From IMG/VR virus record IMGVR_UViG_3300009441_000007: DNA of 64,000 nucleotides. One strand, given 5' to 3'. Below are positions 1-64,000 of the stretch, one piece after another. The notes beneath the pieces were generated by a model. The model searched no databases, had not been told where the DNA came from, and worked only from the letters and a program-made list of their open reading frames with translations. This DNA is from an uncultured virus (IMG/VR IMGVR_UViG_3300009441_000007) (lineage: Duplodnaviria > Heunggongvirae > Uroviricota > Caudoviricetes). How positions within the stretch are numbered: the first letter of the stretch is position 1; every line of letters starts with the position of its first letter. The position numbers and the translations under genes were made by a program.

Positions 1-682
1 CACCAGCAACGGCTGCCTTTGCCACGAATTTTGTTCCCCCGCCGGCTATGTTAGTGACCAACTTGGCGCTCATTACTGCGAGTCGCGTCATCATGCTGTC
101 TTCTACATCGTCCAACTTTTTCTCTACGGCCTCATCCAACCCATCAAATGCCCCACCTGTCTTACCACCACTGAAATCCAACCCCATCGCCATCAGACCA
201 GCAATGCCTCCGATACCGGCGGCCATTTTGCCCTTACCCGCCATAGTCGTTTGGCCACCCTTAACTTCTTGTTGCGGGGGTTTAACTGTTTCCACCTTCT
301 CCGCCTTTGAAACCAGCGCACCGACACCGGCGACAGTGGCAAGCGTATTCTTTTTGATATCCTCCAAGACATCTATAATATCTTTGTTGTTACCAAGGTT
401 CTCCGGCAACGAAGAAACTGCGCCGCCAGCGGTCACTGGGGTAGTAGCGCCTTGGCCGGCAGCTACTCCATTCCCAGTTGGGAATTGTCTCACGTTATCA
501 TTGCTACCAATAGAATTAGATTGTCTCTGTTGTGGGCTACTCGACATTGCCGAAGCAATGCCATATCCGGCAGCGGCCTTGCCAACAGTTCCCGCAGCTC
601 GCAATCCGCTTTTCGCCACACCAGCCCCTGCTCTGAGTGCCATGGCTCCTACTCTACCCATTCCCATTAGTAGTGGTAACAT
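1..682 (-). CDS. Partial (runs off window start) Gly/Ala-rich protein, probable tape-measure / baseplate hub (gp29-like)
   Basis: Manual translation of minus strand from ATG at 682 (MLPLLMGMGRVGAMALRAGAGVAKSG...), open to window edge; GGGG SD-like upstream; lies downstream of gp26/gp51-like genes as in T4-like phages. Confidence 0.5.
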   Translation of the reverse strand, partial: MLPLLMGMGRVGAMALRAGAGVAKSGLRAAGTVGKAAAGYGIASAMSSSPQQRQSNSIGSNDNVRQFPTGNGVAAGQGATTPVTAGGAVSSLPENLGNNKDIIDVLEDIKKNTLATVAGVGALVSKAEKVETVKPPQQEVKGGQTTMAGKGKMAAGIGGIAGLMAMGLDFSGGKTGGAFDGLDEAVEKKLDDVEDSMMTRLAVMSAKLVTNIAGGGTKFVAKAAVAG

Positions 683-686
683 TTCT

Positions 687-881
687 TTATCCCCATTTGT
701 TTTGTTTCATGCTGTCCGCTTTCTTTTTTAGATGTTGGACTAACATTGCAATATATACTTGCCTTTCCCACGGAATCCAACTCTCTATTTCTGATAAACT
801 GTATTTATGTTCTTGCATCAATAAAAAGTTGGTCTTGAAGTAATTCTCTAAGTTCTCGTGAAAAAGGCTTATACGAAAAAA
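687..881 (-). CDS. gp51: gp51-like baseplate hub assembly protein, probably expressed as a -1 frameshift extension of gp26
   Basis: Manual translation FFRISLFHENLENYFKTNFLLMQEHKYSLSEIESWIPWERQVYIAMLVQHLKKK...; resembles marine T4-like gp51 (L.NY...NF.LMQ.HKYSL.EIE...PWER..Y); conserved part begins before the first Met. Confidence 0.75.
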   Translation of the reverse strand, partial: FFRISLFHENLENYFKTNFLLMQEHKYSLSEIESWIPWERQVYIAMLVQHLKKKADSMKQNKWG

Positions 882-1570
882 TCGTAGTACCCATTTAAGT
901 ACGCTGTGTTTTCCTTTTCACAACTTGCACATTTGTATTCAATAGTATTTTCTATCACTGGCATCGTTTCAAAAAAGTTCTTTATGTGAACAAATTGTTC
1001 CGATGTAAGGTTGTTGACGAACTCTTCCCTCTCTTCAGGGTTTAACGCATCCTCATCAAGAATAACATCACCGTAATAAATCTTTTCTATACACTTTTCT
1101 GCGACCCTGTAAATATCATTTTCTGTCTCAGACTTACCAAGTTCTGCAAGTTCAGTCGCAGTTGGGTATCGCATCTCCAATGATATATCTTCCGCGATAC
1201 TAAATTCTTTTGAATGACCCTCGGTCTTGTTCAGTTTAAAAGCATCCAGACTGAGGTCAACATCCATTGATTTCTCACAGTGGCCGCAGACTAGTCTTAT
1301 ATTCACGGTGTCTGATATTGAAACTTTCCTTAGTTCTAGAAAGATATTTTGCATATCAAAGACGGGTATCTCATCACCCATCACTTCACCAAAGGAACAA
1401 TTGGTAACCACTTGTTGCGTGGCCTTTATCATCTCACTCTGGTCTTTTGTTTCATTTGCTAATACAAGTAACTTCTCTTCCTTTACTAAGAAAGGCCTGA
1501 ATTTTACTTCCCTATCCAGAGAGTGTACATACACATCTATCAATGGATGTTCTGTTAGTGGTAGTGCCAT
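869..1570 (-). CDS. gp26: Baseplate hub assembly protein gp26 (copy 2)
   Basis: MALP...FRPFLVKEEKLL motif, CxxC pairs, MRYPT motif, FF.TMP; start refined to MALPLTEH at 1570. Confidence 0.85.
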   Translation of the reverse strand: MALPLTEHPLIDVYVHSLDREVKFRPFLVKEEKLLVLANETKDQSEMIKATQQVVTNCSFGEVMGDEIPVFDMQNIFLELRKVSISDTVNIRLVCGHCEKSMDVDLSLDAFKLNKTEGHSKEFSIAEDISLEMRYPTATELAELGKSETENDIYRVAEKCIEKIYYGDVILDEDALNPEEREEFVNNLTSEQFVHIKNFFETMPVIENTIEYKCASCEKENTAYLNGYYDFFV

Positions 1571-1571
1571 A

Positions 1572-2270
1572 TTATTCTCCATACTCAGCGTCACCAAAAT
1601 ACCCATTCATAATCGCAGTGTTTTCGGTTTCACATTCTACACAATCGAACTTAATTGCATTTTGCACTACGGGTATCGTTGCAAAAAACAATCTTATTCC
1701 TTCAAATTCACGTTTTGTCAAGTTGTCTATAAACTCAACCTTTTCTTCTATTGATATATCCGTTATTACTTCTCCATCATGTTCCACCGATTCAATGCAT
1801 ATTGATGCCATATCATAAAACTCTACATACTCCTCTACCTTAGTTGATTCCATTATCTCCCCAGCAGTTGGGTATCGCATAGTCACAATCAGGTCATCTT
1901 TGAGAAGAAATCGTGGCGCGTGGGTTTCGTCATACACTATTCTAAAGTCATCCAACTCCAGCGACACGGTGTTCACGGTAGCACATTCCATGCATGTTAT
2001 CAACCAATCTGGCATTTCTACCTTGGACAGTTTCGTCAATGCAATCCAAATTGACTGCAAGTCGAATATTGGTAGTGTAGTTCCATCCACCCTACCTAGA
2101 GAACAATTAGTAATACTCTCTGATATATACTTTAATACTACATCCCTCGGCGAATCTGGTGACTGCAAAAGTCTTTCTTCTTTAACCAGAAGCGGCCTAA
2201 AGGGAACTTTCTCATCTAATGAAAAAACATAGATGTCTGTTAAATCATACTTTGGTGATGGTAATGCCAT
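1572..2270 (-). CDS. gp26: Baseplate hub assembly protein gp26 paralog (copy 1)
   Basis: MALPSPKY, FRPLLVKEE, CxxC, MRYPT, FF.TIP, CxxC; aligns along its length with the adjacent ORF. Confidence 0.75.
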   Translation of the reverse strand: MALPSPKYDLTDIYVFSLDEKVPFRPLLVKEERLLQSPDSPRDVVLKYISESITNCSLGRVDGTTLPIFDLQSIWIALTKLSKVEMPDWLITCMECATVNTVSLELDDFRIVYDETHAPRFLLKDDLIVTMRYPTAGEIMESTKVEEYVEFYDMASICIESVEHDGEVITDISIEEKVEFIDNLTKREFEGIRLFFATIPVVQNAIKFDCVECETENTAIMNGYFGDAEYGE

Positions 2271-2285
2271 TATAAACCCTAATTA

Positions 2286-2918
2286 TTAATCCAATCTATC
2301 CAGAACATTATGTGCAATTTTATTCTTTATTGCACTGCCGATACTTCCCTTGCGGAAGTCCAATATACCAAACAAGTTTTGTGAATCACTCGCATCCACC
2401 CCTTTAGATGTCCACCGCCTAAAGGCGAATGTAACATTGACTCTGACTATGCCTTCTGCACTTTGCCCCATTGGTAGAATATTTAACAGTCGTGGGAATG
2501 CGTCATGTAGTTTCCACTTTGCTACTCTGTTGTCTGCCCTGTCTAATGAATAGACTTCTATCTGTCCGTTGTATGCATCTGGGAAAGTAACTTCCTTGGT
2601 TATTGGGTCTGCTATAAGAGTCATCCAACTCTCAAAGTAAGTTCTAATATCCCAGTTGTCATCGCAGAAGAATGTGAAAGCTGCTGTGTCACCAAAGTAT
2701 TCTAAACCATGAGCTCTCTGTTCCGTCCACGCACCAATCATGGTTGGAGACCATTTGAGTTGCAGGCCTGGGATTTGTGCCTCTTCACAGTATAAAGAAA
2801 CCTCTCTGTCAGCCCTGTGTTTCTGTGGACTCAAGATTACAACTTCAAATCTATTAGACCTAGCAAGGTCATCTTTTCTGACCTGAGATATGAAATCTTG
2901 TGTTTTGAAATAAGCCAT
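2286..2918 (-). CDS. gp54: Baseplate-tail tube initiator (gp54-like, gp19 fold)
   Basis: LARSNRFEV, C....PG, FESWM, L.DAFP, VTFAFRRW typical of tube-fold gp54; synteny. Confidence 0.75.
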   Translation of the reverse strand: MAYFKTQDFISQVRKDDLARSNRFEVVILSPQKHRADREVSLYCEEAQIPGLQLKWSPTMIGAWTEQRAHGLEYFGDTAAFTFFCDDNWDIRTYFESWMTLIADPITKEVTFPDAYNGQIEVYSLDRADNRVAKWKLHDAFPRLLNILPMGQSAEGIVRVNVTFAFRRWTSKGVDASDSQNLFGILDFRKGSIGSAIKNKIAHNVLDRLD

Positions 2919-3487: not shown

Positions 3488-3492
3488 ATCCC

Positions 3493-3500
3493 TATTTATA
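3493..3500 (-). promoter_or_regulatory. T4 late promoter TATAAATA for gp2 operon
   Basis: Exact TATAAATA on minus strand 5 nt upstream of gp2 ATG. Confidence 0.75.
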
Positions 3501-3518
3501 ACATTAATAAATAACTAG

Positions 3519-4303: not shown

Positions 4304-4305
4304 CT

Positions 4306-4313
4306 TATAAATA
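4306..4313 (+). promoter_or_regulatory. T4 late promoter TATAAATA upstream of gp48
   Basis: Exact consensus upstream of the gp48-53-27-5 operon. Confidence 0.75.
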
Positions 4314-6144: not shown

Positions 6145-6147
6145 TAG

Positions 6148-7599
6148 ATGTTGCCGAATGTAAACTCGCCAGGCGGAGTAACGATTGAACAAATTACTTT
6201 GTTAACCGCTCCAGAAGCTGGGGCGAAAGAGATTGATTTGAAACTATTTGTTGGTGATATAGTAATCAAGGAAAGTGTTTTCACCAATTACCTCACAATG
6301 GAACTGGCCATAGGCGACTCTCGAAATTTGATTGGTAATGTACCTATCGTGGGTGGAGAAATCGTCACGGTCAAACTGGTATCAAATCACCTCAATAGTA
6401 GTAGAGACTCAGATATCATAGAACAATCTTTTGTCATTGCTAGTATAGAAAATAGAATGTACAAGGATGACCGCGAAGAGTTTTATACACTTAACTGTAT
6501 AAGTCCAGAAGGATATAAAAACAATGCGGTTGTTATCAACGAAAGATTTAGTGGTTCGCCGAGGGAGATATTTGAAGATATCTATACTCGATACATTAAA
6601 GAACCAAAGGTTATATCAGAGGATGGTACTACAGATTCTCCACCATTAAATTTCCTTGACATTGCTGGCGGAGAAACTTTTAAGAGGTCAAATATTTGTT
6701 TCATTGCTAACTATTGGACACCATATAGGTGTATGAACTTCTTGACCAGTAAGGTTGCACCGGCATCGACCTCTGGGAAACAACTGATGCCGAATGTAAA
6801 ATATTTTCAGTCTACTAAAGGACACTCTGTTGTTAGTCTTTCTAAACTGGTTGCTTATTATAAGGCGCAGGGTGCTATCTATGATGAGTTTTTCTATATC
6901 CCAACAAAAGAGGATGCATTCCAACTAGACGAAAAACGGACAACTATCAGTGGGTATAAATTCCTGAGTCCTTTTGTGGGCAAACAAATGAGTACGATGT
7001 CAGATTTGAAGATTCCATTCTTCACCGATGATTTACTCGACCAAGTTTCTGGATACCAAGGAAGCATGACGATTGGGTTTGATATGGTAACTAGATTGCC
7101 GTATCACATGGAGTTTGATTATACTTCATCACAACCCGCAAGGCTATCACAAAATAAAAGAACCATACCAAGTGGATGGGATGATTTTGGACACATCGCG
7201 GATGTCACCCCCATGCGGAAGAATCCCATATCAGCTCCATCGAGTGCCATAAATGTACAACTTGGTGCATCGCAAATGTGGACTGACCAAGATTTTGGAT
7301 ATGATTGGAGATTTTTAGTAGACACCGCAGCAAGGGGCGCGGCCGATGCGGAACTGGAAAGACTGAAAGTTTCTTTTACTGTGCCGGGCCGCACAGATAT
7401 TGATTTGGGTATGTTGGTATATTTGAATTTTCCAAACACGGGCGAGAAGAGCTCGAACACCAAACCCGATGAAGTATTTGATTCTAGGATGTCTGGTGTA
7501 TATGTTATCACTGGGATTAGGCATGGTGTCTCTAGTGCTGATAATCAGCACAGTATGAGGTTGGATTGTGTTAGAGATAGTATGGGGAGTGTAGGTTGA
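6148..7599 (+). CDS. Baseplate hub protein (gp27-like)
   Basis: I.ESVF.NYLT..L.I.DS.NL...PIVGGE N-terminus; VPG...G, SG.Y.IT..RH C-terminus; between gp53 and gp5. Confidence 0.7.
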   Translation: MLPNVNSPGGVTIEQITLLTAPEAGAKEIDLKLFVGDIVIKESVFTNYLTMELAIGDSRNLIGNVPIVGGEIVTVKLVSNHLNSSRDSDIIEQSFVIASIENRMYKDDREEFYTLNCISPEGYKNNAVVINERFSGSPREIFEDIYTRYIKEPKVISEDGTTDSPPLNFLDIAGGETFKRSNICFIANYWTPYRCMNFLTSKVAPASTSGKQLMPNVKYFQSTKGHSVVSLSKLVAYYKAQGAIYDEFFYIPTKEDAFQLDEKRTTISGYKFLSPFVGKQMSTMSDLKIPFFTDDLLDQVSGYQGSMTIGFDMVTRLPYHMEFDYTSSQPARLSQNKRTIPSGWDDFGHIADVTPMRKNPISAPSSAINVQLGASQMWTDQDFGYDWRFLVDTAARGAADAELERLKVSFTVPGRTDIDLGMLVYLNFPNTGEKSSNTKPDEVFDSRMSGVYVITGIRHGVSSADNQHSMRLDCVRDSMGSVG

Positions 7600-26804: not shown

Positions 26805-27779
26805 ATGGCAGGCCCAGTAACATTAAAAGCAGGAGCTTATCCAGCTGCAGCGGGAGGACTTCAAGGACTCCGCGAGTTGACCGCAGTCGAAATAAAGAAC
26901 CAAGTAGCGGGAGTGGTGACTCTAAAATTTGCCACCGATACTGATGGTAACGGTACTGGCGAACTCAAAATAGTTACGGGTGGTTCTGCCGCAGCAACCG
27001 AAGTAGGAACATTCTCAAACAGAGAAAGAAATGAAACGGTAGGAACACACCCCGCTGGTGGAGCTATAACAACTACCGTCTATCGATTGAATCAGGCTAC
27101 TGGTGCTGTTAGTGAAAGTTCTCAAATCAACCCTCTGAGGTGGACAGGAACGTCCGTAGAACAAGCCACAGACACGGAACTAGATACAGAAGTACTAGAC
27201 CTCGTTATAACTGCAATGTGCGCTGAGGATGCAAATACGGTTGGCCAATACAAAATTGGAACATCTTCACCCTCCGGTGGAACTTGGACGAGTCGGTACA
27301 CGTTTACTGAAACTCAGGTTGATGGAACAGACGTAGCTTACAATCTTTACCAAAAAACTGCGCCCACTACTGCTGCTGGTACAGACACGAACATTCTATT
27401 GAAAGCCGCTACGGCAGGTGAACCGCAGGAAATGTCTGCTGCAAACCTACAAACATTAGTTCCCGCATTCAGAAACCGAATCATTGCTGGTGGTGTTGGA
27501 AAATACTTACTGCAAACTGGTTCACCTTCTGCAACTGGAACTTGGGTACAGATGGGTTCAACCATGACTGACCAGTTAAAGAGTATCTCTAATGTGAACT
27601 ACTCTGGAAACTACACTGGTTCTTATACTGGTTACTACAATAGATTCTTTGCTGGATTCCTTAACGGTGCTTATGCCGGTTCATACTCTGGTACATACAC
27701 TGGTACTTACGCTGGTGCAACTGTACTGACATCTAGTGCTACTCAGGAAACGAAACAACTGTTCATACGAACCGCTTAA
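26805..27779 (+). CDS. Probable virion protein with C-terminal Tyr-x-Gly-x repeats
   Basis: Thr/Gly-rich ORF with AAGGAG SD; ends ...YSGNYTGSYTGYY...YAGSYSGTYTGTYAG... Confidence 0.6.
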   Translation: MAGPVTLKAGAYPAAAGGLQGLRELTAVEIKNQVAGVVTLKFATDTDGNGTGELKIVTGGSAAATEVGTFSNRERNETVGTHPAGGAITTTVYRLNQATGAVSESSQINPLRWTGTSVEQATDTELDTEVLDLVITAMCAEDANTVGQYKIGTSSPSGGTWTSRYTFTETQVDGTDVAYNLYQKTAPTTAAGTDTNILLKAATAGEPQEMSAANLQTLVPAFRNRIIAGGVGKYLLQTGSPSATGTWVQMGSTMTDQLKSISNVNYSGNYTGSYTGYYNRFFAGFLNGAYAGSYSGTYTGTYAGATVLTSSATQETKQLFIRTA

Positions 27780-31015: not shown

Positions 31016-31173
31016 TACCATTGGTGGACATTTCCTGCAATTATAAAGAAACATGTAATAAAATTTACGAGTACCACGACAGTTCTAATCATTGCAATCT
31101 TATCTGCCTCGATGTCGGTGTTTCCTTCCTTCTCGCCCAGACTCTTGGCCCACAATCTCCAGTACGTTTTCAT
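31015..31173 (-). CDS. Small membrane protein (52 aa)
   Basis: Manual translation MKTYWRLWAKSLGEKEGNTDIEADKIAMIRTVVVLVNFITCFFIIAGNVHQW; ATGA and TAATG couplings at both ends; resembles a small ORF recalled from marine T4-like phages. Confidence 0.75.
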   Translation of the reverse strand: MKTYWRLWAKSLGEKEGNTDIEADKIAMIRTVVVLVNFITCFFIIAGNVHQW

Positions 31174-31982: not shown

Positions 31983-34704
31983 GGCAACCACCACACTTTT
32001 TATTACAAATATTCAAAGGATTCCTCTTTAAACTTTCACTTATATTTTCAAAGTCATTATTATATATAACCTCGCCCACGGTGAAATGGATTAAATTATT
32101 GTACTTACTATTGTATGTGTAGTCGATGGGGTGGTATGGCAATACCCTATTCTCTAATACATCTCTAGCAGTCCAAGCGCATGGGTATGCACCACCGTCA
32201 GAACTAATATAGAAGTAACCACTCTTTCGAGCATCACACCACACTGGTTCTGCTTTTTTCGCCTTGGGTTTTGGTCTCCTTACCTCATCTTTCTTCTTAA
32301 ATATTTTCAGTGTTTCTAAGTCAACTGGGATATCACTTGCTATCGTTTTCCTTATAACTGGCATATTCTCAGAGAGTTGAGGATGATCTATATATTCGAT
32401 ATCGTCAACCCATTCTGGCTTGAGATAACTTTTATCATACGTCTGAACATGCACCGTGACATTTTTCTTGCGAAAATATTTGCAGATGTCTTCAAACCAA
32501 AGCGCCTTGGTCGGGTCACTTATTTCACACATCAATGTCACCCAACTCACACCGTATCTATCGAATATCTTTTTGATAGATGATAAAGTGTGTTCGTGGC
32601 CAGTTACGAAGATGTCATTGTATTCGTCATCCGTATCATTTCTTGAACTACTGAGTTGAATTAACGCTCCTTCCGGTGAGCCATCTTCATACAATCCCTT
32701 GTACATGTCACTGTATTGTTCACCATGCATTTGAAAATACTTTACTAGGGTATCATCATCCGATGTCTTGTCCTGTTTTAAAATGTTTAACAGGTCATTT
32801 TTTGGTATGATGTTATATAGTCTTTCAAATACCGCCTCGTAATCCTGTTTGTAAAAGAGTTCTTTGAGATTATCGATGTAGTATCTTTTATATAATTGTT
32901 GTGTATCCTCATTACTTGCGTCCCAGAACAATCGCTGCATACCATAGAGTTTCACATTGTTCATAAACTCGTCTTTGAGTTTTGGTAGAACATTCTTGTG
33001 CCACAGTCTCCGATACAATGCAAAACATTGGTAGTTAGTAATGTTCCAAAAATATCTCACTGGGCCATGAACAACCTGTTCGGCCGAAACAACCGCATGT
33101 TGTCTAGCAATATATCTTTCTTTGTAGAAGTTGTATATACCATCCACATTCTTGTTCCAGTACAAGGATTGACTGCCATTGATAAGAAGTGTGTCCTCTG
33201 GGAAGTCTGCTAAAAACTTCTTATGCATGGAAATCATATCACCAGTATCATATATCTCCTTGATTGTATTCCTATGTTCTGGTTTTATCTGTCGAATGAA
33301 AGTCAGGTCAGATATTTCTTTCTCTATCTCTGGAAAGGCTTCTTTTATTTGTGACACTGTGCCTTCAAAGAGCAAATCTAGTTCGGGAAAATACTCAATC
33401 ATCTTATCGGCAAGAGATACCAAGTCGTTCTCTTCTATCATGGAACGAATGCCATTCACAATATTCGCATCCATATAATTCTTTTCTAGGGTATCATCCG
33501 ACATGGAATCAAACTTAGACCAGTTTTTGATATTGTTAAACGAGTTGTTGTACTGTTCCCAATCACTTTTAATCTTGGGGTTATCTTTCTTAAACTTCTC
33601 TTCAAGGATATTAAATACAACTTTGTGCATCTTGTAGACGAATCTATCCTCGTAGAATTCATAGATACCATCGGCATCTTTATTCCAATACAATGATTCA
33701 TCTCCACTGAGTAACAATGGGTCTGTTGGGAAGTCTGCTAAAAACTTCTTATGCATAGAAATCAAATCATTGCTGAATTCATCGATGGTTGATTTGTGTC
33801 TAGCCTCAATCTGTTTTACAAATGGGTCGTACTCATTTGCGTTTTCAATCAGGGTATCAATTCTATCCGTGTGTTTATTCTTATCGAAAAAATTGTCGGG
33901 AAACTTGGGTAACCAGAGTCTTTCAAATTCTGTTTTGCCATGCCAGTGGATTAAAAGATTGTAGTCTCTCAGTTCGTGTGGTTTGAGGTTGTTCTTATTT
34001 TTGCCGCCAATAGAATCTTCAAATATACAAAACTTAGAATTCTCTCTGTATAGATGTTGTGTTACGTCATCTGGATATGTTCTTCCCCTATTATACGAGT
34101 ACACCCAATCATCAGGCAAGAAAGTCCAATAGTTATCACCGACTACATCGTGTTCTCTGTAGGGATAATAGTTGTCAGTACCTTTGAAGAAAGTCTTAAA
34201 CACAGTATCTTTGTGTTTCATTACATCATTGTAAATCTTTTCGCCTTGGTCGGTACACCATAACATTACGCTGGAGTTATACAAACTTCCCCGTATGTCA
34301 CTAAATCTTCTATCCTTTAGTACGCGAGGGTCTTCCCAGTTAGAGTAAAACATGTGCGGGGATTTGGATAGTTCGTCTATCTCATCGATGTTGTTTTGGA
34401 TTATTACATCTAAATCTAGGTAACAGAAAGGCCCCTTTGTCTTCAACCAATGATGGGAGTTCAAGACAAGAAACTTTGCTCTATCCCAACAGAAGTTTTC
34501 TTGGCCAAACCAGTACTTTGGATGCAGGGGGTCTACATTTGGAATAGGTCGAATCTTGATAGATTTCTCTATGCCCTCTGGTTCGTCCGTGTAGCATATA
34601 AACTTAAACCGTTTGGAGTAGTTTTGCTGAACCATTTTGTAGAGATTGTTTACATATTCTGGAGAGTACTTGTTACCCCATTTTATGCAAAGAAAGTGCA
34701 TCAT
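31972..34704 (-). CDS. 910-aa fusion: N-terminal glycosyltransferase-like domain, helical repeats, C-terminal SPASM-like Cys cluster
   Basis: FLCIKWGNKY, ICYTD, YLDLDVII, NSSVM; internal repeat ISMHKKFLADFP...SLYWNK; C-terminal WC...YISSDG..YPC...IC.KKCGGC. Confidence 0.7.
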   Translation of the reverse strand: MMHFLCIKWGNKYSPEYVNNLYKMVQQNYSKRFKFICYTDEPEGIEKSIKIRPIPNVDPLHPKYWFGQENFCWDRAKFLVLNSHHWLKTKGPFCYLDLDVIIQNNIDEIDELSKSPHMFYSNWEDPRVLKDRRFSDIRGSLYNSSVMLWCTDQGEKIYNDVMKHKDTVFKTFFKGTDNYYPYREHDVVGDNYWTFLPDDWVYSYNRGRTYPDDVTQHLYRENSKFCIFEDSIGGKNKNNLKPHELRDYNLLIHWHGKTEFERLWLPKFPDNFFDKNKHTDRIDTLIENANEYDPFVKQIEARHKSTIDEFSNDLISMHKKFLADFPTDPLLLSGDESLYWNKDADGIYEFYEDRFVYKMHKVVFNILEEKFKKDNPKIKSDWEQYNNSFNNIKNWSKFDSMSDDTLEKNYMDANIVNGIRSMIEENDLVSLADKMIEYFPELDLLFEGTVSQIKEAFPEIEKEISDLTFIRQIKPEHRNTIKEIYDTGDMISMHKKFLADFPEDTLLINGSQSLYWNKNVDGIYNFYKERYIARQHAVVSAEQVVHGPVRYFWNITNYQCFALYRRLWHKNVLPKLKDEFMNNVKLYGMQRLFWDASNEDTQQLYKRYYIDNLKELFYKQDYEAVFERLYNIIPKNDLLNILKQDKTSDDDTLVKYFQMHGEQYSDMYKGLYEDGSPEGALIQLSSSRNDTDDEYNDIFVTGHEHTLSSIKKIFDRYGVSWVTLMCEISDPTKALWFEDICKYFRKKNVTVHVQTYDKSYLKPEWVDDIEYIDHPQLSENMPVIRKTIASDIPVDLETLKIFKKKDEVRRPKPKAKKAEPVWCDARKSGYFYISSDGGAYPCAWTARDVLENRVLPYHPIDYTYNSKYNNLIHFTVGEVIYNNDFENISESLKRNPLNICNKKCGGCHAS
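33199..33756. repeat. 30-bp exact direct repeat (33199-33228 and 33727-33756) marking a duplicated protein domain
   Basis: TGGGAAGTCTGCTAAAAACTTCTTATGCAT occurs at both positions. Confidence 0.85.
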
Positions 34705-35317
34705 AATATTTTTGTCTCAAATTGTAGTTGACTTCATTTTGCCCATTCAAAAGAACAACTGGGTAATCTGGTTTTATTTGATGGGCCCTTGGGGAAGTAT
34801 CTGATTCAACATCTACGCCGCCAAGAAAAGAGTATATCAACCCTTTAGGAAAGGTTCTCTTGAATAGGTTCTCATCATATAAAAAGTTATCATCCTTACC
34901 GTTATATTTATGCAAGTTATAATCATAGTTCTCAAAGAAATACTCTGGTATGTGACTTGCATTAGACTTGTTCCATGCCATAACACTGGAGTTCCACTCA
35001 CCCCCGAAGTTTTTCCAATATGTCTCACATATGGTAGGTTCATCACACAACGCGAATAACGGGTCAAGATTACCCTGTACGATGACATCCAAGTCAAGGT
35101 ATAGGTTATCTCCATCAAAACTATTGTGGAGGAGAGATATTTTTTCCCAGTTACCCAATCCATCTATAGGAAGACAATCTATGTTGTCATTTAGTCCAGT
35201 GGTGAGATCGGTGAAACAAACGAACCTGTCAAACTGATTTTCACACATATTATAAATAGTGTTTACGCAATCAGAAGAGTACTTGTTTCCGTATTTAAGG
35301 GTGACAATGGTTCTCAT
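34673..35317 (-). CDS. Glycosyltransferase-like protein (KYG.KY family, GT-A)
   Basis: LKYGNKY...VN, FVCFTD, WEKI, LYLDLDVIV, WNSSVMAW, YSF. Confidence 0.75.
   Translation of the reverse strand: MRTIVTLKYGNKYSSDCVNTIYNMCENQFDRFVCFTDLTTGLNDNIDCLPIDGLGNWEKISLLHNSFDGDNLYLDLDVIVQGNLDPLFALCDEPTICETYWKNFGGEWNSSVMAWNKSNASHIPEYFFENYDYNLHKYNGKDDNFLYDENLFKRTFPKGLIYSFLGGVDVESDTSPRAHQIKPDYPVVLLNGQNEVNYNLRQKYYDALSLHKMG
35251..35258 (+). promoter_or_regulatory. T4 late promoter TATAAATA for the 35335 operon
   Basis: Exact consensus, embedded antisense in the GT gene. Confidence 0.6.
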
Positions 35318-53881: not shown

Positions 53882-53910
53882 ATTATACATCATCTCCAGG
53901 CAGTTGTCAA
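53882..53910 (-). promoter_or_regulatory. Consensus sigma70 promoter, antisense to the upstream operon
   Basis: Minus strand TTGACA-17 nt-TATAAT. Confidence 0.7.
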
Positions 53911-54696: not shown

Positions 54697-55257
54697 ATGA
54701 ACATATTTTATCTACACAGACAACCGGCCGAATCTGCGACATATCACTGCGATAAACATGTAGTAAAGATGGTCATCGAGTACGCGCAACTACTATCAAC
54801 CGCGCACAGAATGCTCGATGGCGACCACTACATTGACGCCTCTAGTGGTAGACGCATCCAACGGTGGAGACTGTCTGAGTCAGACCGCGAAGGTGTCCTG
54901 TACAAGGCCTCACATGTCAATCACCCATCTGCTATATGGGTTCGCAAAAACAAAGTACAGTATCAGTACATGTACGAACTGTTCGTTTCTCTGTGTGATG
55001 AATACACGCATCGATATGGCAGAGTACACATGACAGATTATAAGTTGCGGAACTTCTTGTCAACGCCTCCCGTCAATATCCCAACAGGTATTTTTACTGA
55101 CCCACCACAATGCATGCCAGACAATTGCAAACAATCTATCACAGTCAATGCTTACCGAGAATATTACATCAAGGAAAAGAAAGGATTTGCAAAGTGGACA
55201 TCCAGACAAATACCATCGTGGTTCAATGACCAAGAGTCTAACTATGCATCTCAGTAA
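54697..55257 (+). CDS. denV: Pyrimidine dimer DNA glycosylase / endonuclease V family protein
   Basis: MNIF.L, HCDKHVVKM..EYAQLLSTAHR, LYK..H.NHP...W, L..EYT.RYG..H, P..MP, AYR.YY...K. Confidence 0.8.
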   Translation: MNIFYLHRQPAESATYHCDKHVVKMVIEYAQLLSTAHRMLDGDHYIDASSGRRIQRWRLSESDREGVLYKASHVNHPSAIWVRKNKVQYQYMYELFVSLCDEYTHRYGRVHMTDYKLRNFLSTPPVNIPTGIFTDPPQCMPDNCKQSITVNAYREYYIKEKKGFAKWTSRQIPSWFNDQESNYASQ

Positions 55258-56356
55258 AGAAGATACAATTTATGCTAGTAAACTAGTCATCGATTATTTT
55301 TCTCAGTTTGAGAGGATAGATGATTACTTTCGTATCAGAAAGATAGACAGGGTGAACAAACTGCCACCGCCTCTTTTTGGTATGAGTGTAGAAGATGATA
55401 TGTTTCAATCATGGGACATGCATCCAGAAGATATGAACTTTGAAATCGTACAAGTACCTAACCAATCGTTTGATCAAATGTTAGAGATGACTGCATCTTT
55501 CTCACCAGACCAAGCGCCAGGCAAGGAAATGAAACTTGTGGTCAAAGAAACAACTACCAATAAGGCGGTTGGATTTATCAAGTTGGGTTCACCTCTAATA
55601 AACTCCAAACCAAGGAATGATTTTCTTGGTGGTGTTCCCGACTTGCCCATTTTTAATAAACGGGCAATCATGGGGTTTAATATAGTTCCAGTACAACCAT
55701 TCGGATTTAATTATCTGGGTGGTAAGTTACTGGCTGCAATTTGTTGTTCGCATGAAGTACGGAGAATGTTGAACAGAAAGTATAAGACAGAGTTTTGTTT
55801 GTTTGAGACCACTTCTTTATACGGCAATATTAAAGGTGCATCAATGTATGATGGCATGAAACCTTTCCTAAGATATAAAGGTGACACCATGTCATCCTTC
55901 TTGTTGACTATGGGTGAAGATATATACTTTCACCTGAGAGATTGGTTTGAAGAAAAGAACGGTGGTGAAGTACTTATTCACAAAGGTGCATCCAGTAGAA
56001 AACTAAAGTATCAAACTAAGATGATACAGGTACTCAAACAAAATTTGAAAGTACATGATGATAAGGCATATGAACTATTCTGTGACGTAATTAAGAAATC
56101 AACTGATGTTACCACACAGAAAAGATTCTATATGAGTGAGTATGGATATTCTAATGTACAGGACGTTCTTTTAGGTAAGACGCAACAATTAGAAAAGGCG
56201 GAGAACTTTGATAGGTTTGAACTGCCCAATGTTATTGAGTGGTGGCGCAAGAAGGCAATCAAACGATATAACAACTTGGTATCAGACGGCCGGATACGAA
56301 AGGAACTGGAAGTTTGGAATTCTGAAACAATTAACACGATAGATATAATAAGATGA
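55244..56356 (+). CDS. DUF4338 / DruA-like protein
   Basis: PG......V.E.....VGFI.LGSP.I..KPR, IVP.QPFGFNYLGGKLLA, FETTSLYG....SMYDG; start refined to MHLSKED. Confidence 0.6.
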   Translation: MHLSKEDTIYASKLVIDYFSQFERIDDYFRIRKIDRVNKLPPPLFGMSVEDDMFQSWDMHPEDMNFEIVQVPNQSFDQMLEMTASFSPDQAPGKEMKLVVKETTTNKAVGFIKLGSPLINSKPRNDFLGGVPDLPIFNKRAIMGFNIVPVQPFGFNYLGGKLLAAICCSHEVRRMLNRKYKTEFCLFETTSLYGNIKGASMYDGMKPFLRYKGDTMSSFLLTMGEDIYFHLRDWFEEKNGGEVLIHKGASSRKLKYQTKMIQVLKQNLKVHDDKAYELFCDVIKKSTDVTTQKRFYMSEYGYSNVQDVLLGKTQQLEKAENFDRFELPNVIEWWRKKAIKRYNNLVSDGRIRKELEVWNSETINTIDIIR

Positions 56357-56604
56357 TAATACAGATTTATTCAAAACCAGCATGTACATACTGTGACCAA
56401 GCTGAGAAGATTGCAGAACAGATAGTTCAAGCTATGCCTGCCAACTACGAAAAACTTATGTTGGATGTAGACTTCTCAATGGATGAACTGATAGAAAAAG
56501 TACCTAACGCAAAAACATTCCCGCAAGTATTTGTGGATGGTGAGTTGGTTGGTGGGTACGGAGAGTTTTCGCGGATGGAATGGTTGGCAGACAAACATGA
56601 TTAA
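56353..56604 (+). CDS. grx: Glutaredoxin
   Basis: IYSK..CTYC..A, TFPQVFVDG..VGGY. Confidence 0.9.
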   Translation: MIIQIYSKPACTYCDQAEKIAEQIVQAMPANYEKLMLDVDFSMDELIEKVPNAKTFPQVFVDGELVGGYGEFSRMEWLADKHD

Positions 56605-57037
56605 TGAATCGATAAAGGTGGGGTTTGTCGCAAGTTGTTTTGACTTACTACATGCAGGACATATATGTATGTTAAGAGAAGCAAAAGATAATTGTGATTA
56701 TTTGATATGTGCATTGCAGACAGACCCAACTATTGATAGACCCGATGAGAAGAACCCCCCTGTTCAGTCTGTCTATGAGAGATATGAACAACTACAGGCA
56801 GTTCGATACGTCAATGAGATAATTCCATATGAAACTGAGGAGTCGTTGGTTGATTTGTTGCTTGCTAGGAATCCAGACATAAGGTTTCTGGGACAGGAAT
56901 ATGAGTGGAAAGAATATACGGGTAGGGAATTAGACATAGAAATTCACTACACCAATAGAGAACATTCTTTCTCAACTACAAGTCTAAGAAAGAGGGTAGT
57001 TGTTAATGAAAATAACATGTGCAAGACTAAGGTCTAA
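56597..57037 (+). CDS. Cytidylyltransferase (TagD / glycerol-3-phosphate cytidylyltransferase family)
   Basis: FDLLHAGH (HxGH), CDYLI.ALQ.DP..DRP.EKN.P.QS..ER, RYV.EI.PY, R.H.FSTT.LR. Confidence 0.85.
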   Translation: MINESIKVGFVASCFDLLHAGHICMLREAKDNCDYLICALQTDPTIDRPDEKNPPVQSVYERYEQLQAVRYVNEIIPYETEESLVDLLLARNPDIRFLGQEYEWKEYTGRELDIEIHYTNREHSFSTTSLRKRVVVNENNMCKTKV

Positions 57038-57992
57038 TGTAAAGTACGAGGGCCCATTAGCAACGGTACTCGATAGTTTCTTGGAGAATTATGTTAAGTG
57101 GATGAGAAACAATCCACAGAACGAATACCGGACATACAACATATCGTTTGATGGTACTAGACCAAAGAGAACGCCTGAGTCGATAGAGTGGGCTGATGTC
57201 ATCGTTATACCAAGTGACAGTGAGTTCCGGTATCATGGTGAGTTGCAGATGAACCCCAAGGACTTGGAGAAGTCGCAGTCGCATATGGATACCATCATCC
57301 CACACTTCAAAGGCAAACACGTTGTTGTTATGAGAAGTGATAGGGGCGACACCGAAAAACTATACAGGGAAGATACACTACAGAACATTCCTATAAAATC
57401 CTACACGGAGATTGATGAGATTGATTTCTCTGGAAATATTCATGGGATGAAGTATCACTTTATACGGAACAAGTTTGGCAATCCACTATACACCGAACCA
57501 AAGAAAACCGATTTTGGTTACTGGGGTAGGATGAAGTCAGGGTGTGACCGCGATAAAATCATCAGAAAGATTTACCGCGACCCAGACTTGACAAGTACTT
57601 TGATTGGTGGATTTCCTTCTGGTATCAAACGACAGTCATCTTGGATAAAGGATTGGAATCTACTGTATCCTCTTCTAGAACCCAACCGATTTACGTTGTG
57701 TTTTAACTGGAAAGATGAGTGCGCTACTACGTCTAGATATATTGAGGCTCTTGCAATAGGAATGATACCCTTTGTGTGGAGACAGTATGATAAAAACAAC
57801 ACATACAATATAGATGACTGGCAAAGGATAGAAGACTTTGATGATTTGAAGTCTAAGGTAATGCAATTGAGAGATAATGATTTTCTTGATAAGAAACTAG
57901 AAGAATATAGAAAGAATTACAACGAGGTACTTTTGTCCATCGAAGAGTACTACCAACAGTTTGACCGCAAAATGCATGGAGTGACACCTTGA
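57006..57992 (+). CDS. GT-B glycosyltransferase resembling T4 DNA beta-glucosyltransferase
   Basis: Segments match the recalled T4 Bgt pattern: DVIVIPSDSEFRYHG; KKTDFGYWGRMKSG.DR; T.RY.EALA.......YD.....ID...I..FD.L..KV..L. Confidence 0.55.
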   Translation: MKITCARLRSNVKYEGPLATVLDSFLENYVKWMRNNPQNEYRTYNISFDGTRPKRTPESIEWADVIVIPSDSEFRYHGELQMNPKDLEKSQSHMDTIIPHFKGKHVVVMRSDRGDTEKLYREDTLQNIPIKSYTEIDEIDFSGNIHGMKYHFIRNKFGNPLYTEPKKTDFGYWGRMKSGCDRDKIIRKIYRDPDLTSTLIGGFPSGIKRQSSWIKDWNLLYPLLEPNRFTLCFNWKDECATTSRYIEALAIGMIPFVWRQYDKNNTYNIDDWQRIEDFDDLKSKVMQLRDNDFLDKKLEEYRKNYNEVLLSIEEYYQQFDRKMHGVTP

Positions 57993-63285: not shown

Positions 63286-63293
63286 GAGATACC

Positions 63294-63665
63294 ATGGCAG
63301 ACGATTTCGATTTTGGGTTTACCGCTGTAGATGAGATACCAAAGGGTGAGACAGACACCCAACCAGTTCAGGCGGAAATACCAGCAGACCAATTAGATAA
63401 GATAATGGATAAACTAGAAGTGCTGGAGTCTAGGATTCTTTCCTCTGACAATTCTGGTATGATAAATGAACACAGGGCGTTGTTGGAGACTGATGTCGCT
63501 ACTAAGTTGCGGGATGCCGAAGACTTAATATTGCCCCTCTTAAAGAATCTGAAACGGAACCCAGACAAAGATTACATTCACTGGCCGAATCGAGATGTCA
63601 TTATTGACAAACAAATAGAACGGATTACGGCCGTAACAAGGTACTTTGAACGAATAGGTAGCTGA
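63294..63665 (+). CDS. Conserved T4-like hypothetical protein
   Basis: DFDFGFTAVDE ... I.PLL.NL..NP.K.YI.WPNR motif. Confidence 0.75.
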   Translation: MADDFDFGFTAVDEIPKGETDTQPVQAEIPADQLDKIMDKLEVLESRILSSDNSGMINEHRALLETDVATKLRDAEDLILPLLKNLKRNPDKDYIHWPNRDVIIDKQIERITAVTRYFERIGS

Positions 63666-63666
63666 T

Positions 63667-63825
63667 ATGACGGATTTAACTAAACCAAGTCAAGAAGAGA
63701 TCATCACCCACCAAGCGGAAATACTGCGATTTCAGGAAAAACAGGTCAAAGATCAACAGAAAATGCTCGAAGATCAACGAATTCGCATAGAAAATCTCAT
63801 TTCTGGGCCAGATTCACCCAAATAA
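63667..63825 (+). CDS. Small coiled-coil hypothetical protein (52 aa)
   Basis: Manual translation MTDLTKPSQEEIITHQAEILRFQEKQVKDQQKMLEDQRIRIENLISGPDSPK. Confidence 0.5.
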   Translation: MTDLTKPSQEEIITHQAEILRFQEKQVKDQQKMLEDQRIRIENLISGPDSPK

Positions 63826-63882
63826 ATTCAATCTTTTTTCGCTTTCCCTTATAAATCAAGGGCTTACTGCGGCGGATAGTTC

Positions 63883-63911
63883 TTGACTTCTGCCCCATAG
63901 TATGTCATGAT
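63883..63911 (+). promoter_or_regulatory. Probable sigma70-type early/middle promoter
   Basis: TTGACT-17 nt-CATGAT with TG extended -10; CTTGACTTCTG motif. Confidence 0.55.
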
Positions 63912-63939
63912 CACTATGTAATCGAGATGAGAGAAGACT

Positions 63940-64000
63940 ATGGATATTAAAGACAAATCGCTGCTTGCAAAGTTACTTGCTACTGAAGATGTTTCTATTG
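63940..64000 (+). CDS. Partial: N-terminus of the CobT-like/peptidase-VWA protein of T4-like phages
   Basis: MDIKDKSLLAKLLATEDVSI matches the recalled K..LAKLLATE N-terminal signature. Confidence 0.6.
   Translation, partial: MDIKDKSLLAKLLATEDVSI

What the first reader, a model, noticed from the sequence alone, without database searches (positions are those of the whole stretch)
1..64000. Window-wide motif bias: CCNGG tolerated only as GCCNGG/CCNGGC; GGWCC and GATC avoided
Seen by eye, not exhaustive: every CCNGG I inspected (roughly 30, e.g. gp18 TCG CCT GGC, TAC CCA GGC, ACG CCT GGA; gp17 ATC CCA GGC; gp47 ATT CCT GGC) has a 5' G or a 3' C. Gly-Pro pairs I checked are always GGG CCN or GGC CCN although GGT/GGA dominate elsewhere. 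Asp-Pro is usually GAC CCN, and GATC appears only a few dozen times. Inference: selection against host restriction sites except where they overlap GCC/GGC, as expected if a phage enzyme modifies cytosine in a GC(C) context. This may be the footprint of the Bgt-like cassette or of a methyltransferase outside the window.
Basis: partly seen in the sequence, partly recalled or inferred. Interest (0 to 1): 0.75.

Follow-up and report, generated by a model that had tools for sequence, protein, structure and literature searches.

The report
Restriction sites survive only in GC[C/T] context
This ocean T4-like phage has erased dozens of restriction-enzyme target words from its genes, and keeps the unavoidable ones only where the first C follows a G, which points to a protective DNA mark at G-C-C/T.

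Summary
Against a codon-preserving shuffle, the window has 0 HCCNGGD (62 expected), 0 GGWCC (44 expected) and 31 GATC (198 expected). Sixteen 6-base palindromes are absent.

All 34 coding CCNGG are unavoidable Pro-Gly pairs. Gly is GGC in 30 of 34, and the preceding codon ends in G in 23 of the 26 cases where a synonym allows it.

The same flank rule holds for CCATGG, CCTAGG, CCGCGG, CTGCAG, CTCGAG and CTTAAG: all 13 survivors have a 5' G or 3' C. It does not hold for avoided sites starting with A, G or T. One enzyme's flank preference cannot explain this. A protective modification of cytosine in 5'-G-C-[C/T]-3' can.

Three related genomes (G008, G006, cultured OM43 phage Melnitz) show the same split; G002 and HTVC008M do not. 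The context equals the published GpC[C/T] specificity of phage C5-methyltransferase/TET cassettes. Melnitz has one; the window's closest complete relative does not.

A Mom-family gene about 5.8 kb past the window end is the only enzyme-sized gene tracking the footprint. The Bgt-like cassette does not track it. No chemistry was tested.

Earlier scan notes reported similar purges on other marine phage DNA.

The parts
1..64000 (.). Window-wide word bias. HCCNGGD 0, GGWCC 0 and GATC 31. Sixteen 6-base palindromes are at 0 (AGATCT, TTCGAA, GGTACC, ACCGGT, TGCGCA, AACGTT, GTGCAC, TACGTA, TCGCGA, GTCGAC, ACGCGT, CACGTG, CGTACG, CCCGGG, GCGCGC, GACGTC). CGACG/CGTCG occurs once.
   Evidence: Markov and codon-shuffle nulls.
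6169..6173 (+). Example of a steered, unavoidable site: TCG CCA GGC (Ser-Pro-Gly), giving GCCAGGC. The 35 CCNGG start at 2767, 3075, 4397, 6169, 7384, 8337, 8466, 8958, 9093, 13050, 13887, 15390, 17967, 18664, 19345, 20011, 23296, 23470, 25348, 29423, 30852, 38478, 41511, 42003, 42513, 42870, 43938, 44052, 46023, 51090, 52032, 53896, 55517, 58238 and 60990.
   Evidence: 34 of 35 are Pro-Gly in frame. Gly is GGC in 30 of 34. The 4 exceptions all follow a codon ending in G.
53896..53900 (+). The only non-coding CCNGG (tCCAGGc). It also has a 3' C.
26845..26850 (.). Example of the same flank rule at another site family: cagCTGCAGcgg. All 13 survivors of six CC/CT-starting palindromes are flanked by 5' G or 3' C. 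They are CCATGG at 640, 20819, 35333, 60341 and 63292; CCTAGG at 38722; CCGCGG at 37260 and 40069; CTGCAG at 26845 and 48320; CTCGAG at 51656; CTTAAG at 4763 and 50833.
   Evidence: flanked 13 against 25.2 expected; unflanked 0 against 36.4 +/- 5.5 (lowest of 200 shuffles 20).
55148..56356 (+). DruA/DUF4338-like protein, first gene of the 'Bgt-like cassette'. Considered as a source of the modification and rejected.
   Evidence: Pfam PF14236 E 4e-8. DUF4338 is called a GNAT domain in PMC10853773 (passage read). A 50% identical homologue sits in footprint-negative HTVC008M, and none in Melnitz. The AlphaFold model reached only pLDDT 63 and was not searched further.
56531..57037 (+). Cytidylyltransferase-like protein, second gene of the cassette.
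   Evidence: Pfam PF01467 E 2.8e-17. Also present in G002.
57000..57992 (+). Rejected as a source of the footprint.
   Evidence: It has no Pfam hit. The protein atlas, by language-model features only, gives viral 'exostosin GT47' clusters at 0.99 and a PF09198 T4-Gluco-transf cluster at 0.96. A 39% identical homologue sits in footprint-negative HTVC008M.
30341..35317 (-). Tail-fibre-region block with two weak glycosyltransferase-like ORFs (30341-31054 and 34673-35317). Not linked to the footprint.
   Evidence: PHROG 1962 E 3e-9 and 8e-10. Homologues of 38-72% identity occur in footprint-negative G002.
63940..64000 (+). Start of the ORF that runs off the window. Near-identical contigs continue it to gp45, a redoxin and a Mom-family gene about 5.8 kb beyond position 64000.
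   Evidence: G001 is 99.6-99.9% identical to window 24263-64000 and extends 599 bases beyond it. L174 overlaps G001's end at 100% protein identity. L174:5401-6216 matches Pfam PF25680 Mom with E 7.9e-59. Whether these contigs come from the window's own genome is not shown.

Best explanation
The bias is the combined footprint of two anti-restriction devices.

(1) Site purging. The phage has recoded its genes with synonymous codons to remove the targets of many Type II restriction enzymes of its host population. These include GATC, GGWCC, CCNGG and at least 16 six-base palindromes.

(2) A context-limited DNA mark. The phage DNA carries a base modification at cytosine in 5'-G-C-[C/T]-3', or on that G:C pair.
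- Any site whose first C lies in that context is shielded: G|CCNGG, G|CCGG, G|CCATGG, G|CTGCAG, G|CTTAAG, or the mirror ...G|C.
- Such sites are therefore not selected against.
- Where protein sequence forces a site (Pro-Gly always spells CCNGG), the phage picks the neighbouring codons so that the site becomes GCCNGGC and is marked on both strands.

Shown here: the purge, the flank rule, its generality across site families, its codon mechanism, and its presence or absence in relatives.

Inferred: that the agent is a modification, which base carries it, and which enzyme writes it.

My preferred writer, at about 0.35, is the Mom-family GNAT enzyme encoded about 5.8 kb downstream of the window in near-identical contigs. 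It would have a target different from phage Mu's adenine.
For: Window, codon-shuffle null:
- CCNGG with 5' G or 3' C: 35 observed against 29.2 expected. Without: 0 against 62.3.
- Six other CC/CT-starting palindromes: flanked 13 against 25.2; unflanked 0 against 36.4.
- From the expectations, my arithmetic gives the chance that all survivors are flanked as about 4e-18 for CCNGG and 9e-6 for the six palindromes.

Controls:
- Flanks A/T, C/G and T/A show no effect.
- Avoided sites starting with A, G or T show no flank effect (21 flanked, 19 unflanked).
- C-starting words that are not avoided show no G preference (119 against 130 expected).
- The 2 CA/CG-starting survivors are both unflanked.

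Codon steering:
- Gly after Pro is GGC in 30 of 34 cases in the window, 69 of 75 in G008, 58 of 64 in G006 and 44 of 65 in Melnitz.
- In the controls it is 24 of 123 (G002) and 11 of 117 (HTVC008M).
- The Pro-Gly dipeptide is itself depleted to 0.62-0.63 of expectation in all four footprint-positive sequences, against 0.96 and 1.17 in the controls.

Whole genomes, Markov-1 null, CC/CT-starting sites with a site C in G-C-[C/T] versus without:
- G008: 136/145 versus 0/348.
- G006: 103/123 versus 0/287.
- Melnitz: 107/106 versus 2/238.
- G002: 223/297 versus 322/440.
- Under the simpler 5' G / 3' C flank criterion (a slightly different site list, no CCGCGG), HTVC008M gives flanked 87/76 versus unflanked 142/177.

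Other support:
- In 80 IMG/VR loci (670 kb) carrying a Melnitz-type C5-MTase, HCCNGGD is 4 against 457 expected.
- All 12 six-base palindromes with an internal GCC or GCT are present in the window (2 to 16 copies), while 16 others are at 0.
- A G-C-[C/T] enzyme specificity exists in phages: the C5-MTs paired with TET (PMC8256090, passages).

Mom as the candidate writer:
- Among G008 ORFs of 70 aa or more, 6 are present in Melnitz and G006 and absent from G002 and HTVC008M.
- Of those 6, the Mom-family gene is the only enzyme-sized one. The others are three proteins of 75-127 aa and two antisense ORFs.
- G008, G006 and Melnitz have no PF01555 or PF02086 match. G008 and G006 also have no PF00145 or PF12851 match.
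Against: - No chemical or sequencing-signal evidence of any modified base was available. All 20 public runs that hold the phage are served only as contigs.
- In the window, the flanked copies of the six other palindromes are at half expectation (13 against 25.2), so shielding may be partial.
- AGCT has an internal G-C-T yet is still depleted in the window (70 against 200). G002 and HTVC008M show AGCT depletion as well.
- The window's own genome outside the 64 kb was not seen. Gene content is inferred from near-identical contigs and from G008.
- Against Mom as writer:
  - Mu Mom modifies adenine in SAS (PMC13219725, passages).
  - GCCSGGC and GCCGGC contain no adenine, and SAS-containing sites (GGACC, GTCGAC, CACGTG) are purged.
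  - Mu's essential R111 is Lys in this subfamily.
  - Edwardsiella phage ET-ABTNL-9 carries a 51% identical homologue and shows no flank rescue: CC-starting sites 1 flanked against 24 expected, CT-starting 0 against 20.5.
  - The contrast rests on only two independent positive lineages.
  - Locus L237 shows the footprint (0/33.5 unflanked) without Mom at the syntenic place or anywhere in its 30-kb contig, which covers 18% of a genome.
Confidence: 0.75

Rival explanations
1. The G-C-[C/T] mark is 5-methylcytosine, or 5hmC and its derivatives. It would be written by a C5-methyltransferase plus TET cassette lying outside the window, as in Melnitz.
For: - Melnitz shows the identical footprint.
- It encodes a C5-MTase (PF00145, E 7e-55) overlapping a Tet_JBP gene (PF12851, 43 bits, cut-off 34.9) next to its DNA polymerase.
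- Published phage MTs of this kind methylate GpC[C/T] (PMC8256090).
- 80 MTase-bearing loci have HCCNGGD 4 against 457 expected.
Against: - G008 is the closest complete relative of the window: MCP 93% identical, syntenic, and its ends are joined by G006.
- G008 has no PF00145 or PF12851 match, and neither do G006, G009 and G010. Melnitz was the positive control in the same searches.
- In G008 the DNA polymerase is followed by UvsX, not by a methylase.
- The 8 kb known beyond the window end holds no methylase.
Confidence: 0.12
2. The mark is written by a host enzyme, a methyltransferase shared by the host population, and phage DNA merely inherits it.
For: - The footprint occurs in lineages with different gene content (Melnitz-type and G008-type).
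- It always comes with the same purge spectrum (GATC, GGWCC, GGTACC, TTCGAA, AACGTT), which suggests one host group.
- The Melnitz paper says its host H5P1 also encodes a type II methylase (PMC9004378, passage).
Against: - GpC[C/T] was reported as a specificity not known for any other C5-MT in REBASE (PMC8256090).
- No close relative of the Melnitz MTase was found in 185,579 species genomes, though this was a peptide-seeded scan that sees close relatives only.
- OM43 podovirus MEP401 has a quite different spectrum (CCNGG 38/35, GGWCC 21/21, GGCC 0/39), so there is no OM43-wide rule. It grows on a different strain, however.
- The host of the window's phage is unknown.
Confidence: 0.12
3. There is no modification. 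The host's CCNGG enzyme simply has the extended specificity HCCNGGD.
For: Restriction enzymes of the CCGG family do vary in their flanking-base specificity, and degenerate positions of the 'not G / not C' kind exist (recalled from general knowledge, not checked here).
Against: - The same 5' G / 3' C rescue holds for CCGG, CCATGG, CCTAGG, CCGCGG, CTGCAG, CTCGAG and CTTAAG in the window, G008, G006 and Melnitz.
- These sites are targets of unrelated enzymes.
- Both flanks are selected at once (GCCNGGC 19 against 2.5 expected).
Confidence: 0.03
4. The Bgt-like cassette in the window (DruA-like GNAT, cytidylyltransferase, glycosyltransferase; 55148-57992) writes a sugar mark that produces the footprint.
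For: - The cassette is conserved in G008 and G006 at 85-90% identity.
- The 330-aa protein resembles T4 beta-glucosyltransferase clusters, by language-model features only.
Against: - Homologues of the DruA-like protein (50%) and the glycosyltransferase (39%) are in HTVC008M, which lacks the footprint.
- Ten further footprint-negative loci carry DruA-like genes.
- Melnitz has the footprint without the cassette.
- No hydroxymethylcytosine source (C5-MT plus TET) was found in G008.
Confidence: 0.03
5. The bias comes from codon-pair or mutational effects unrelated to restriction.
For: AGC/GCT-containing words, poly-A and some non-palindromic words are also skewed. This shows that other forces act on the sequence too.
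Against: - The fully purged words are overwhelmingly palindromic restriction-type sites.
- Relatives of 80-85% MCP identity lack the purge, while more distant ones share it.
- The flank rule applies only to avoided words.
Confidence: 0.02

Closest known systems
Restriction-site (palindrome) avoidance in virulent dsDNA phages (Sharp 1986 and Rocha 2001 recalled; Rusinov et al. 2018 named in an earlier scan note; none read here)
   Same: - Palindromic Type II target words are depleted by synonymous recoding.
- The spectrum differs between relatives on different hosts.
   Different: - Here the purge is conditional on a flanking base across many site families.
- Unavoidable sites are steered by neighbouring codons into the exempt context.
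- The Pro-Gly dipeptide itself is depleted.
- My two literature searches on this listed no description of such a flank-conditional purge. I read the listings only.
Phage C5-methyltransferase + TET (5mYOX) + glycosyltransferase post-replicative cytosine hypermodification (Burke et al. 2021, PMC8256090, passages read; bioRxiv 10.1101/2023.12.21.572611, passages read)
   Same: - The inferred context G-C-[C/T] equals the measured MT/TET specificity GpC[C/T].
- Melnitz, which shares the footprint, carries an MT-TET pair.
   Different: - The window's closest complete relatives have neither gene.
- The preprint's authors judged that a GpC-limited mark is unlikely to give broad protection against restriction.
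- The footprint here argues that it does protect, once combined with purging of every site outside the context.
Phage Mu Mom, a tRNA-dependent glycyl transfer to N6 of adenine in SAS (Silva et al. 2026, PMC13219725, abstract and passages read; PDB 8BV8)
   Same: - A Mom-family gene sits about 5.8 kb past the window end in near-identical contigs (Pfam E 8e-59; 8BV8 E 2e-22).
- It is about 30% identical to Mu Mom, and catalytic S124 is conserved.
- Mu Mom also gives a context-limited protective mark.
   Different: - The footprint needs a mark on a G:C pair, not on adenine.
- SAS-containing sites are purged.
- R111 is Lys, and the subfamily has a roughly 45-residue C-terminal extension.
T4 hydroxymethylcytosine glucosylation (Bgt/Agt); recalled
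   Same: A glycosyltransferase with T4-Bgt-like features is encoded in the window.
   Different: - T4 replaces every cytosine before replication and so needs no site purging.
- This phage purges heavily.
- Its relatives show no hmC source.

Membership tests
Restriction-site avoidance | Target words depleted against a null that keeps protein sequence and codon usage | tested here: met
   HCCNGGD 0/62, GGWCC 0/44, GATC 31/198, GGTACC 0/20, TTCGAA 0/28, AACGTT 0/21.
Restriction-site avoidance | Spectrum follows host rather than phage phylogeny | tested here: met
   - Relatives with 80-85% MCP identity (L001, G002) lack the purge. L011, L013 and Melnitz, at about 69-70%, have it.
- HTVC008M and MEP401 have other spectra.
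- The hosts of the uncultured genomes are unknown.
Phage C5-MT/TET GpC[C/T] hypermodification | C5-cytosine methyltransferase gene (PF00145) | tested here: not met
   - Not in the window, nor in the 8 kb beyond it.
- No match in G008 (circularly closed), G006, G009 or G010. Melnitz was the positive control.
- The window's own full genome was not available.
Phage C5-MT/TET GpC[C/T] hypermodification | TET/JBP dioxygenase gene next to the methylase | tested here: not met
   PF12851 matched only in Melnitz among the 5 records searched.
Phage C5-MT/TET GpC[C/T] hypermodification | Mark confined to G-C-[C/T] | tested here: met
   - Indirect, from the footprint: rescue at GCC and GCT but not at GCA or GCG in the window.
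- G008 gives 136/145 against 0/348.
Phage C5-MT/TET GpC[C/T] hypermodification | 5mC, 5hmC or glycosyl-5hmC present in virion DNA | not testable with these tools
   No raw reads or chemistry were available.
Mom family (PF25680) | Sequence membership | tested here: met
   - L174:5401-6216 has Pfam E 7.9e-59, with PHROG 1384 'Mom-like' E 2.8e-43 and 8BV8 E 2.3e-22.
- The gene lies on a near-identical neighbouring contig, not in the window.
Mom family (PF25680) | Catalytic residues R111 and S124 of Mu Mom | tested here: inconclusive
   In alignment A1, S124 is invariant in 5 of 5 sequences. R111 is Lys in the 4 non-Mu sequences.
Mom family (PF25680) | Target is adenine in SAS | tested here: not met
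   - Protected sites such as GCCGGC and GCCSGGC hold no adenine.
- SAS-bearing GGACC, GTCGAC and CACGTG are at 0.
T4-type hmC glucosylation | Source of hydroxymethylcytosine plus a DNA glucosyltransferase that tracks the phenotype | tested here: not met
   - No C5-MT or TET was found in G008, and ThyX is the only thymidylate-synthase-type hit among the 108 G008 ORFs scanned.
- The glycosyltransferase homologue is also in footprint-negative HTVC008M.

The most novel reading that the evidence does not exclude
A marine subfamily of the Mom GNAT enzymes has switched its target from adenine (SAS) to cytosine, or its G:C pair, in 5'-G-C-[C/T]-3'. It would write a so far undescribed mark, for instance an N4-aminoacyl or carbamoylmethyl cytosine.

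Whole genomes of abundant ocean T4-like phages would then have co-evolved with this single enzyme. Every restriction site outside the marked context is purged, and unavoidable Pro-Gly sites are steered into it.
Probability: 0.3. Interest if true: 0.9.

Novelty: new variant of a known kind. Interest (0 to 1): 0.72.

Why it matters
Workers on post-replicative phage DNA hypermodification have asked whether a mark limited to GpC can protect against restriction at all. The preprint 10.1101/2023.12.21.572611 judges it unlikely.

This footprint is evolutionary evidence that it can protect, because the phage removes every target the mark cannot cover. In G008 the split is 0 of 348 expected sites outside the context against 136 of 145 inside it.

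The result has three practical uses.
- It gives a sequence-only test for hidden, context-limited DNA modification in uncultured phages.
- It gives the modification context without any chemistry.
- It gives a ready model, since the cultured phage Melnitz shows the same pattern.

It also flags a Mom-family enzyme whose target may not be adenine. Finally, it shows restriction pressure reaching protein composition, through Pro-Gly depletion.

Tried and rejected
- Megablast of a window gene against named phages found nothing, and no whole genome is held for the window.
- Walking off the window end:
  - G001 adds only 599 bases.
  - Exact-word scans of viral contigs returned only contigs already in hand.
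  - The single metagenome scan gave one 3-kb contig.
  - L174, L182 and L183 add about 8 kb, which reaches gp62 but not the DNA polymerase.
- The genome-contig scan for the Melnitz methylase found nothing, so host methylase homology stays untested.
- Public runs: 20 runs in 17 studies hold the 10-kb stretch at 0.97 of its words, but all are served as contigs. No read-level sign of modification could be sought, and read laying was not used.
- The OM43 phage Venkman, which grows on the same host strain as Melnitz, would be the best test of host-written marks. I found no accession for it.
- MEP401 and HTVC008M proved uninformative for that question because they do not avoid these sites.
- The DruA-like protein was folded (pLDDT 63). 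No fold search was run, because comparative data had already excluded it.
- The small methyltransferase-fold ORFs, the QueC-like ORF and the radical-SAM ORFs of G008 are absent from Melnitz (the QueC-like ORF also has a homologue in footprint-negative G002), so they are not common to the positive genomes.
- DUF6267 is shared by G008 and Melnitz, but it drops out once HTVC008M is subtracted.
- A test of GC-ending sites (GCATGC, GCGCGC) had too little power.
- The supplements of PMC8256090 and PMC13219725 (sequence lists, motif logos) were not seen. They might allow the Melnitz methylase or this Mom subfamily to be placed among the tested enzymes.

Full report
**What the window is.** PHROG and Pfam scans of 61 ORFs show the structural and part of the replication module of a T4-like myophage.
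- The genes run from baseplate, tail fibres, neck, terminase, sheath, tube, portal, protease, scaffold and major capsid to UvsY, UvsW-like helicase, gp55, gp47/46 and peptide deformylase.
- G+C is 40.9%.
- The nearest named capsids, by major capsid protein (MCP), are Methylophilales phage Melnitz (69.8%), Pelagibacter phage HTVC008M (67.5%) and cyanophages (about 62%).
- The closest large relative found is the uncultured 161-kb record G008. Its MCP is 93% identical, and 56 of the window's 61 ORFs have a G008 hit at 37-95% identity (most 50-95%) in the same order.
- The stretch is common in the sea: 20 runs from 17 studies hold 97% of its sampled words.

**Check of the observation.**
- 35 of 35 CCNGG have a 5' G or a 3' C. 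GGWCC is 0, GGSCC is 52 and GATC is 31.
- The null was 300 shuffles of synonymous codons within genes. Expectations:
  - HCCNGGD 62.0 +/- 6.6.
  - GGWCC 43.6 +/- 5.1.
  - GATC 198 +/- 10.
  - GGSCC 27.7.
  - GCCNGGC 2.5 (19 observed).
- Gly before Pro is GGC or GGG in 23 of 23 cases.
- Asp before Pro is GAC in 48 of 53 cases.

**The purge is much wider than reported.**
- Sixteen 6-base palindromes are absent.
- CGACG/CGTCG occurs once against 66 expected.
- Several other palindromes are reduced to one or two copies.

**How the survivors arise.**
- 34 of the 35 CCNGG are in-frame Pro-Gly pairs, and CCN GGN always spells the site. The other one is intergenic, so every avoidable copy is gone.
- At the forced copies the neighbours are chosen. 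Gly is GGC in 30 of 34, against 16% of Gly codons overall.
- The four exceptions all follow a codon ending in G.
- The preceding codon ends in G in 23 of 34 cases, which is 23 of the 26 where the amino acid has a G-ending codon.
- Both flanks are thus selected. GCCNGGC is 7.6 times expectation, while one-sided sites are at 16 against 26.5.
- Pro-Gly itself is depleted to 0.63 of expectation in the window and to 0.62 in G008, G006 and Melnitz. In G002 and HTVC008M it is at 0.96 and 1.17.

**The decisive extension.** The flank rule is not peculiar to CCNGG.
- In the window, all 13 survivors of CCATGG, CCTAGG, CCGCGG, CTGCAG, CTCGAG and CTTAAG have a 5' G or 3' C. Flanked copies are 13 against 25.2 expected, and unflanked 0 against 36.4 +/- 5.5.
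- Other flank bases have no effect.
- Avoided sites that begin with A, G or T show no flank effect (21 flanked, 19 unflanked).
- C-starting words that are not avoided show no G preference.
- The two CA/CG-starting survivors are unflanked.
- The exempt context is therefore G-C-[C/T], with the C being the first base of the site.
- All 12 six-base palindromes with an internal GCC or GCT are present, while 16 others are at zero.

**Whole genomes give a cleaner picture** (Markov-1 null). The counts are CC/CT-starting sites with a site cytosine in G-C-[C/T] versus without.
- G008: 136/145 versus 0/348.
- G006: 103/123 versus 0/287.
- Melnitz: 107/106 versus 2/238.
- G002 (MCP 80% to the window): 223/297 versus 322/440.
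- Under the simpler 5' G / 3' C flank criterion (a slightly different site list, no CCGCGG), HTVC008M gives flanked 87/76 versus unflanked 142/177.

Unrelated enzymes recognise these sites, so a flank preference of one nuclease cannot be the cause. A mark on the G:C pair in that context can.

**Who writes the mark: the C5-MT/TET route.**
- The context equals the GpC[C/T] specificity measured for phage C5-methyltransferases that work with TET dioxygenases (PMC8256090, passages).
- Melnitz carries such a pair. Gene 5 is a PF00145 methylase and the overlapping gene 6 is a Tet_JBP protein.
- 80 IMG/VR loci with homologues of that methylase (76-100% identity, 670 kb, many of them near-duplicates) have HCCNGGD 4 against 457 expected.
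- The window's own lineage does not seem to have this pair. G008, G006, G009 and G010 give no PF00145 or PF12851 match in searches where Melnitz rings.
- G006 bridges the two ends of G008, so G008 is effectively complete.
- G008 and G006 also lack PF01555 and PF02086.

**Who writes the mark: subtractive comparison.**
- I looked for G008 ORFs of 70 aa or more that are present in Melnitz and G006 but absent from G002 and HTVC008M. Six remain.
- They are a Mom-family protein, three small proteins of 75-127 aa and two antisense ORFs.
- One of the small proteins lies two genes from mom in Melnitz.
- In contigs that continue the window at 99.6-100% identity, the Mom gene sits between gp45 and gp44, about 5.8 kb past position 64000.
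- It belongs to the family by Pfam (E 8e-59) and by PDB 8BV8 (E 2e-22). It keeps Mu's S124 but has Lys for R111.

**Points against Mom as the writer.**
- Mu Mom modifies adenine in SAS (PMC13219725). The protected sites can lack adenine altogether.
- An Edwardsiella phage with a 51% identical homologue shows no rescue.
- One footprint-positive 30-kb contig has no Mom, but it covers only 18% of a genome.
- I therefore hold the existence of a G-C-[C/T] mark at about 0.75 and Mom as its writer at about 0.35.

- The cassette at 55148-57992 (DruA/DUF4338-like, cytidylyltransferase, glycosyltransferase with T4-Bgt-like features) has homologues in footprint-negative HTVC008M and none in Melnitz.
- The glycosyltransferase-like ORFs in the tail-fibre block are also in G002.
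- GGWCC against GGSCC needs only an AvaII-type enzyme and forced Gly-Pro codons.

**Host.**
- The purge spectrum is shared with Melnitz, whose host is OM43 strain H5P1.
- It differs from HTVC008M (SAR11 host) and from MEP401, which grows on another OM43 strain.
- The host of this phage remains unknown, and a host-written mark is not excluded (about 0.12).

**Relation to what is in print.**
- Site avoidance is classical, and GpC[C/T] marks are published.
- I did not find, in the listings of two full-text searches, a purge conditional on the flanking base across many site families, with codon steering of unavoidable sites.
- A preprint from the group that found the GpC marks doubts that they can protect broadly. 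This footprint bears directly on that doubt.
- Earlier notes of this scan reported related purges on other marine phage DNA. Note e1-5782405 mentioned CCWGG survivors in one flanking context, and note e1-5337794 a GGWCC purge shared with Melnitz.
- I confirmed the Melnitz statement here and did not re-examine the other genomes.

Noticed in passing
G002 (L220-L228), relative of the window: This footprint-negative relative has its own flank rule. Survivors of avoided G-starting palindromes (GCATGC, GCGCGC, GCTAGC, GTGCAC) almost all have a 5' G or 3' C: 20 observed against 71 expected flanked, and 5 against 129 unflanked. It also avoids GGCC (179/315). This may be a different context-limited mark, such as a GG/CC context.
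   Followed up: no
G008 (L211-L219): ACGT is entirely absent from this 161-kb genome (0 against 343 expected), while the window still has 83. CGCG is over-represented (G008's five CA/CG-starting words together 236 observed against about 94 expected, nearly all of them CGCG).
   Followed up: no
window 1-64000: Non-palindromic words are also strongly depleted: CGACG/CGTCG 1 against 66 expected, CCAGTC/GACTGG 4 against 25, GAGACG/CGTCTC 1 against 13, and ACCTGC 5 against 27. This suggests Type IIS, IIG or III targets.
   Followed up: no
window 1-64000 and all relatives: AGCT and other AGC/GCT words are depleted in footprint-positive and footprint-negative genomes alike (window 70/200, G002 318/642, HTVC008M first 50 kb 51/158). 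AGCT holds an internal G-C-T, so the cause seems separate from the flank rule.
   Followed up: partly
Melnitz MZ577097 70556-70804 and G008 157234-157461: A 75-aa protein, 72% identical between the two lineages, is one of the few genes confined to footprint-positive genomes. In Melnitz it lies two genes downstream of mom. A regulatory partner, as Com is for Mu mom, is conceivable but untested.
   Followed up: no
Melnitz MZ577097 4010-8090: The methylase-TET pair is followed by a 427-aa protein with no family hit and a P-loop kinase-like protein. These are possible tailoring steps of a hypermodification pathway in a cultured phage.
   Followed up: partly
G008 1-12000 and 154000-161406 (L211, L218, L219): A large cluster of radical-SAM/SPASM proteins sits with a methyltransferase, a carbamoyltransferase and sugar-nucleotide enzymes at the junction of the circular map.
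   Followed up: no
L202 and L208 (G009, G010): These Mom-bearing relatives (66% identity) keep CCNGG at the expected total (27/32 and 29/34), but only 1 copy each is unflanked. GGWCC and CCGG are not avoided. The CCNGG rule can therefore occur without the rest of the purge.
   Followed up: partly
window 18586-25698: A 2370-aa virion protein (PHROG 358, E 3e-266) sits among the baseplate genes, as in G008 and Melnitz.
   Followed up: no
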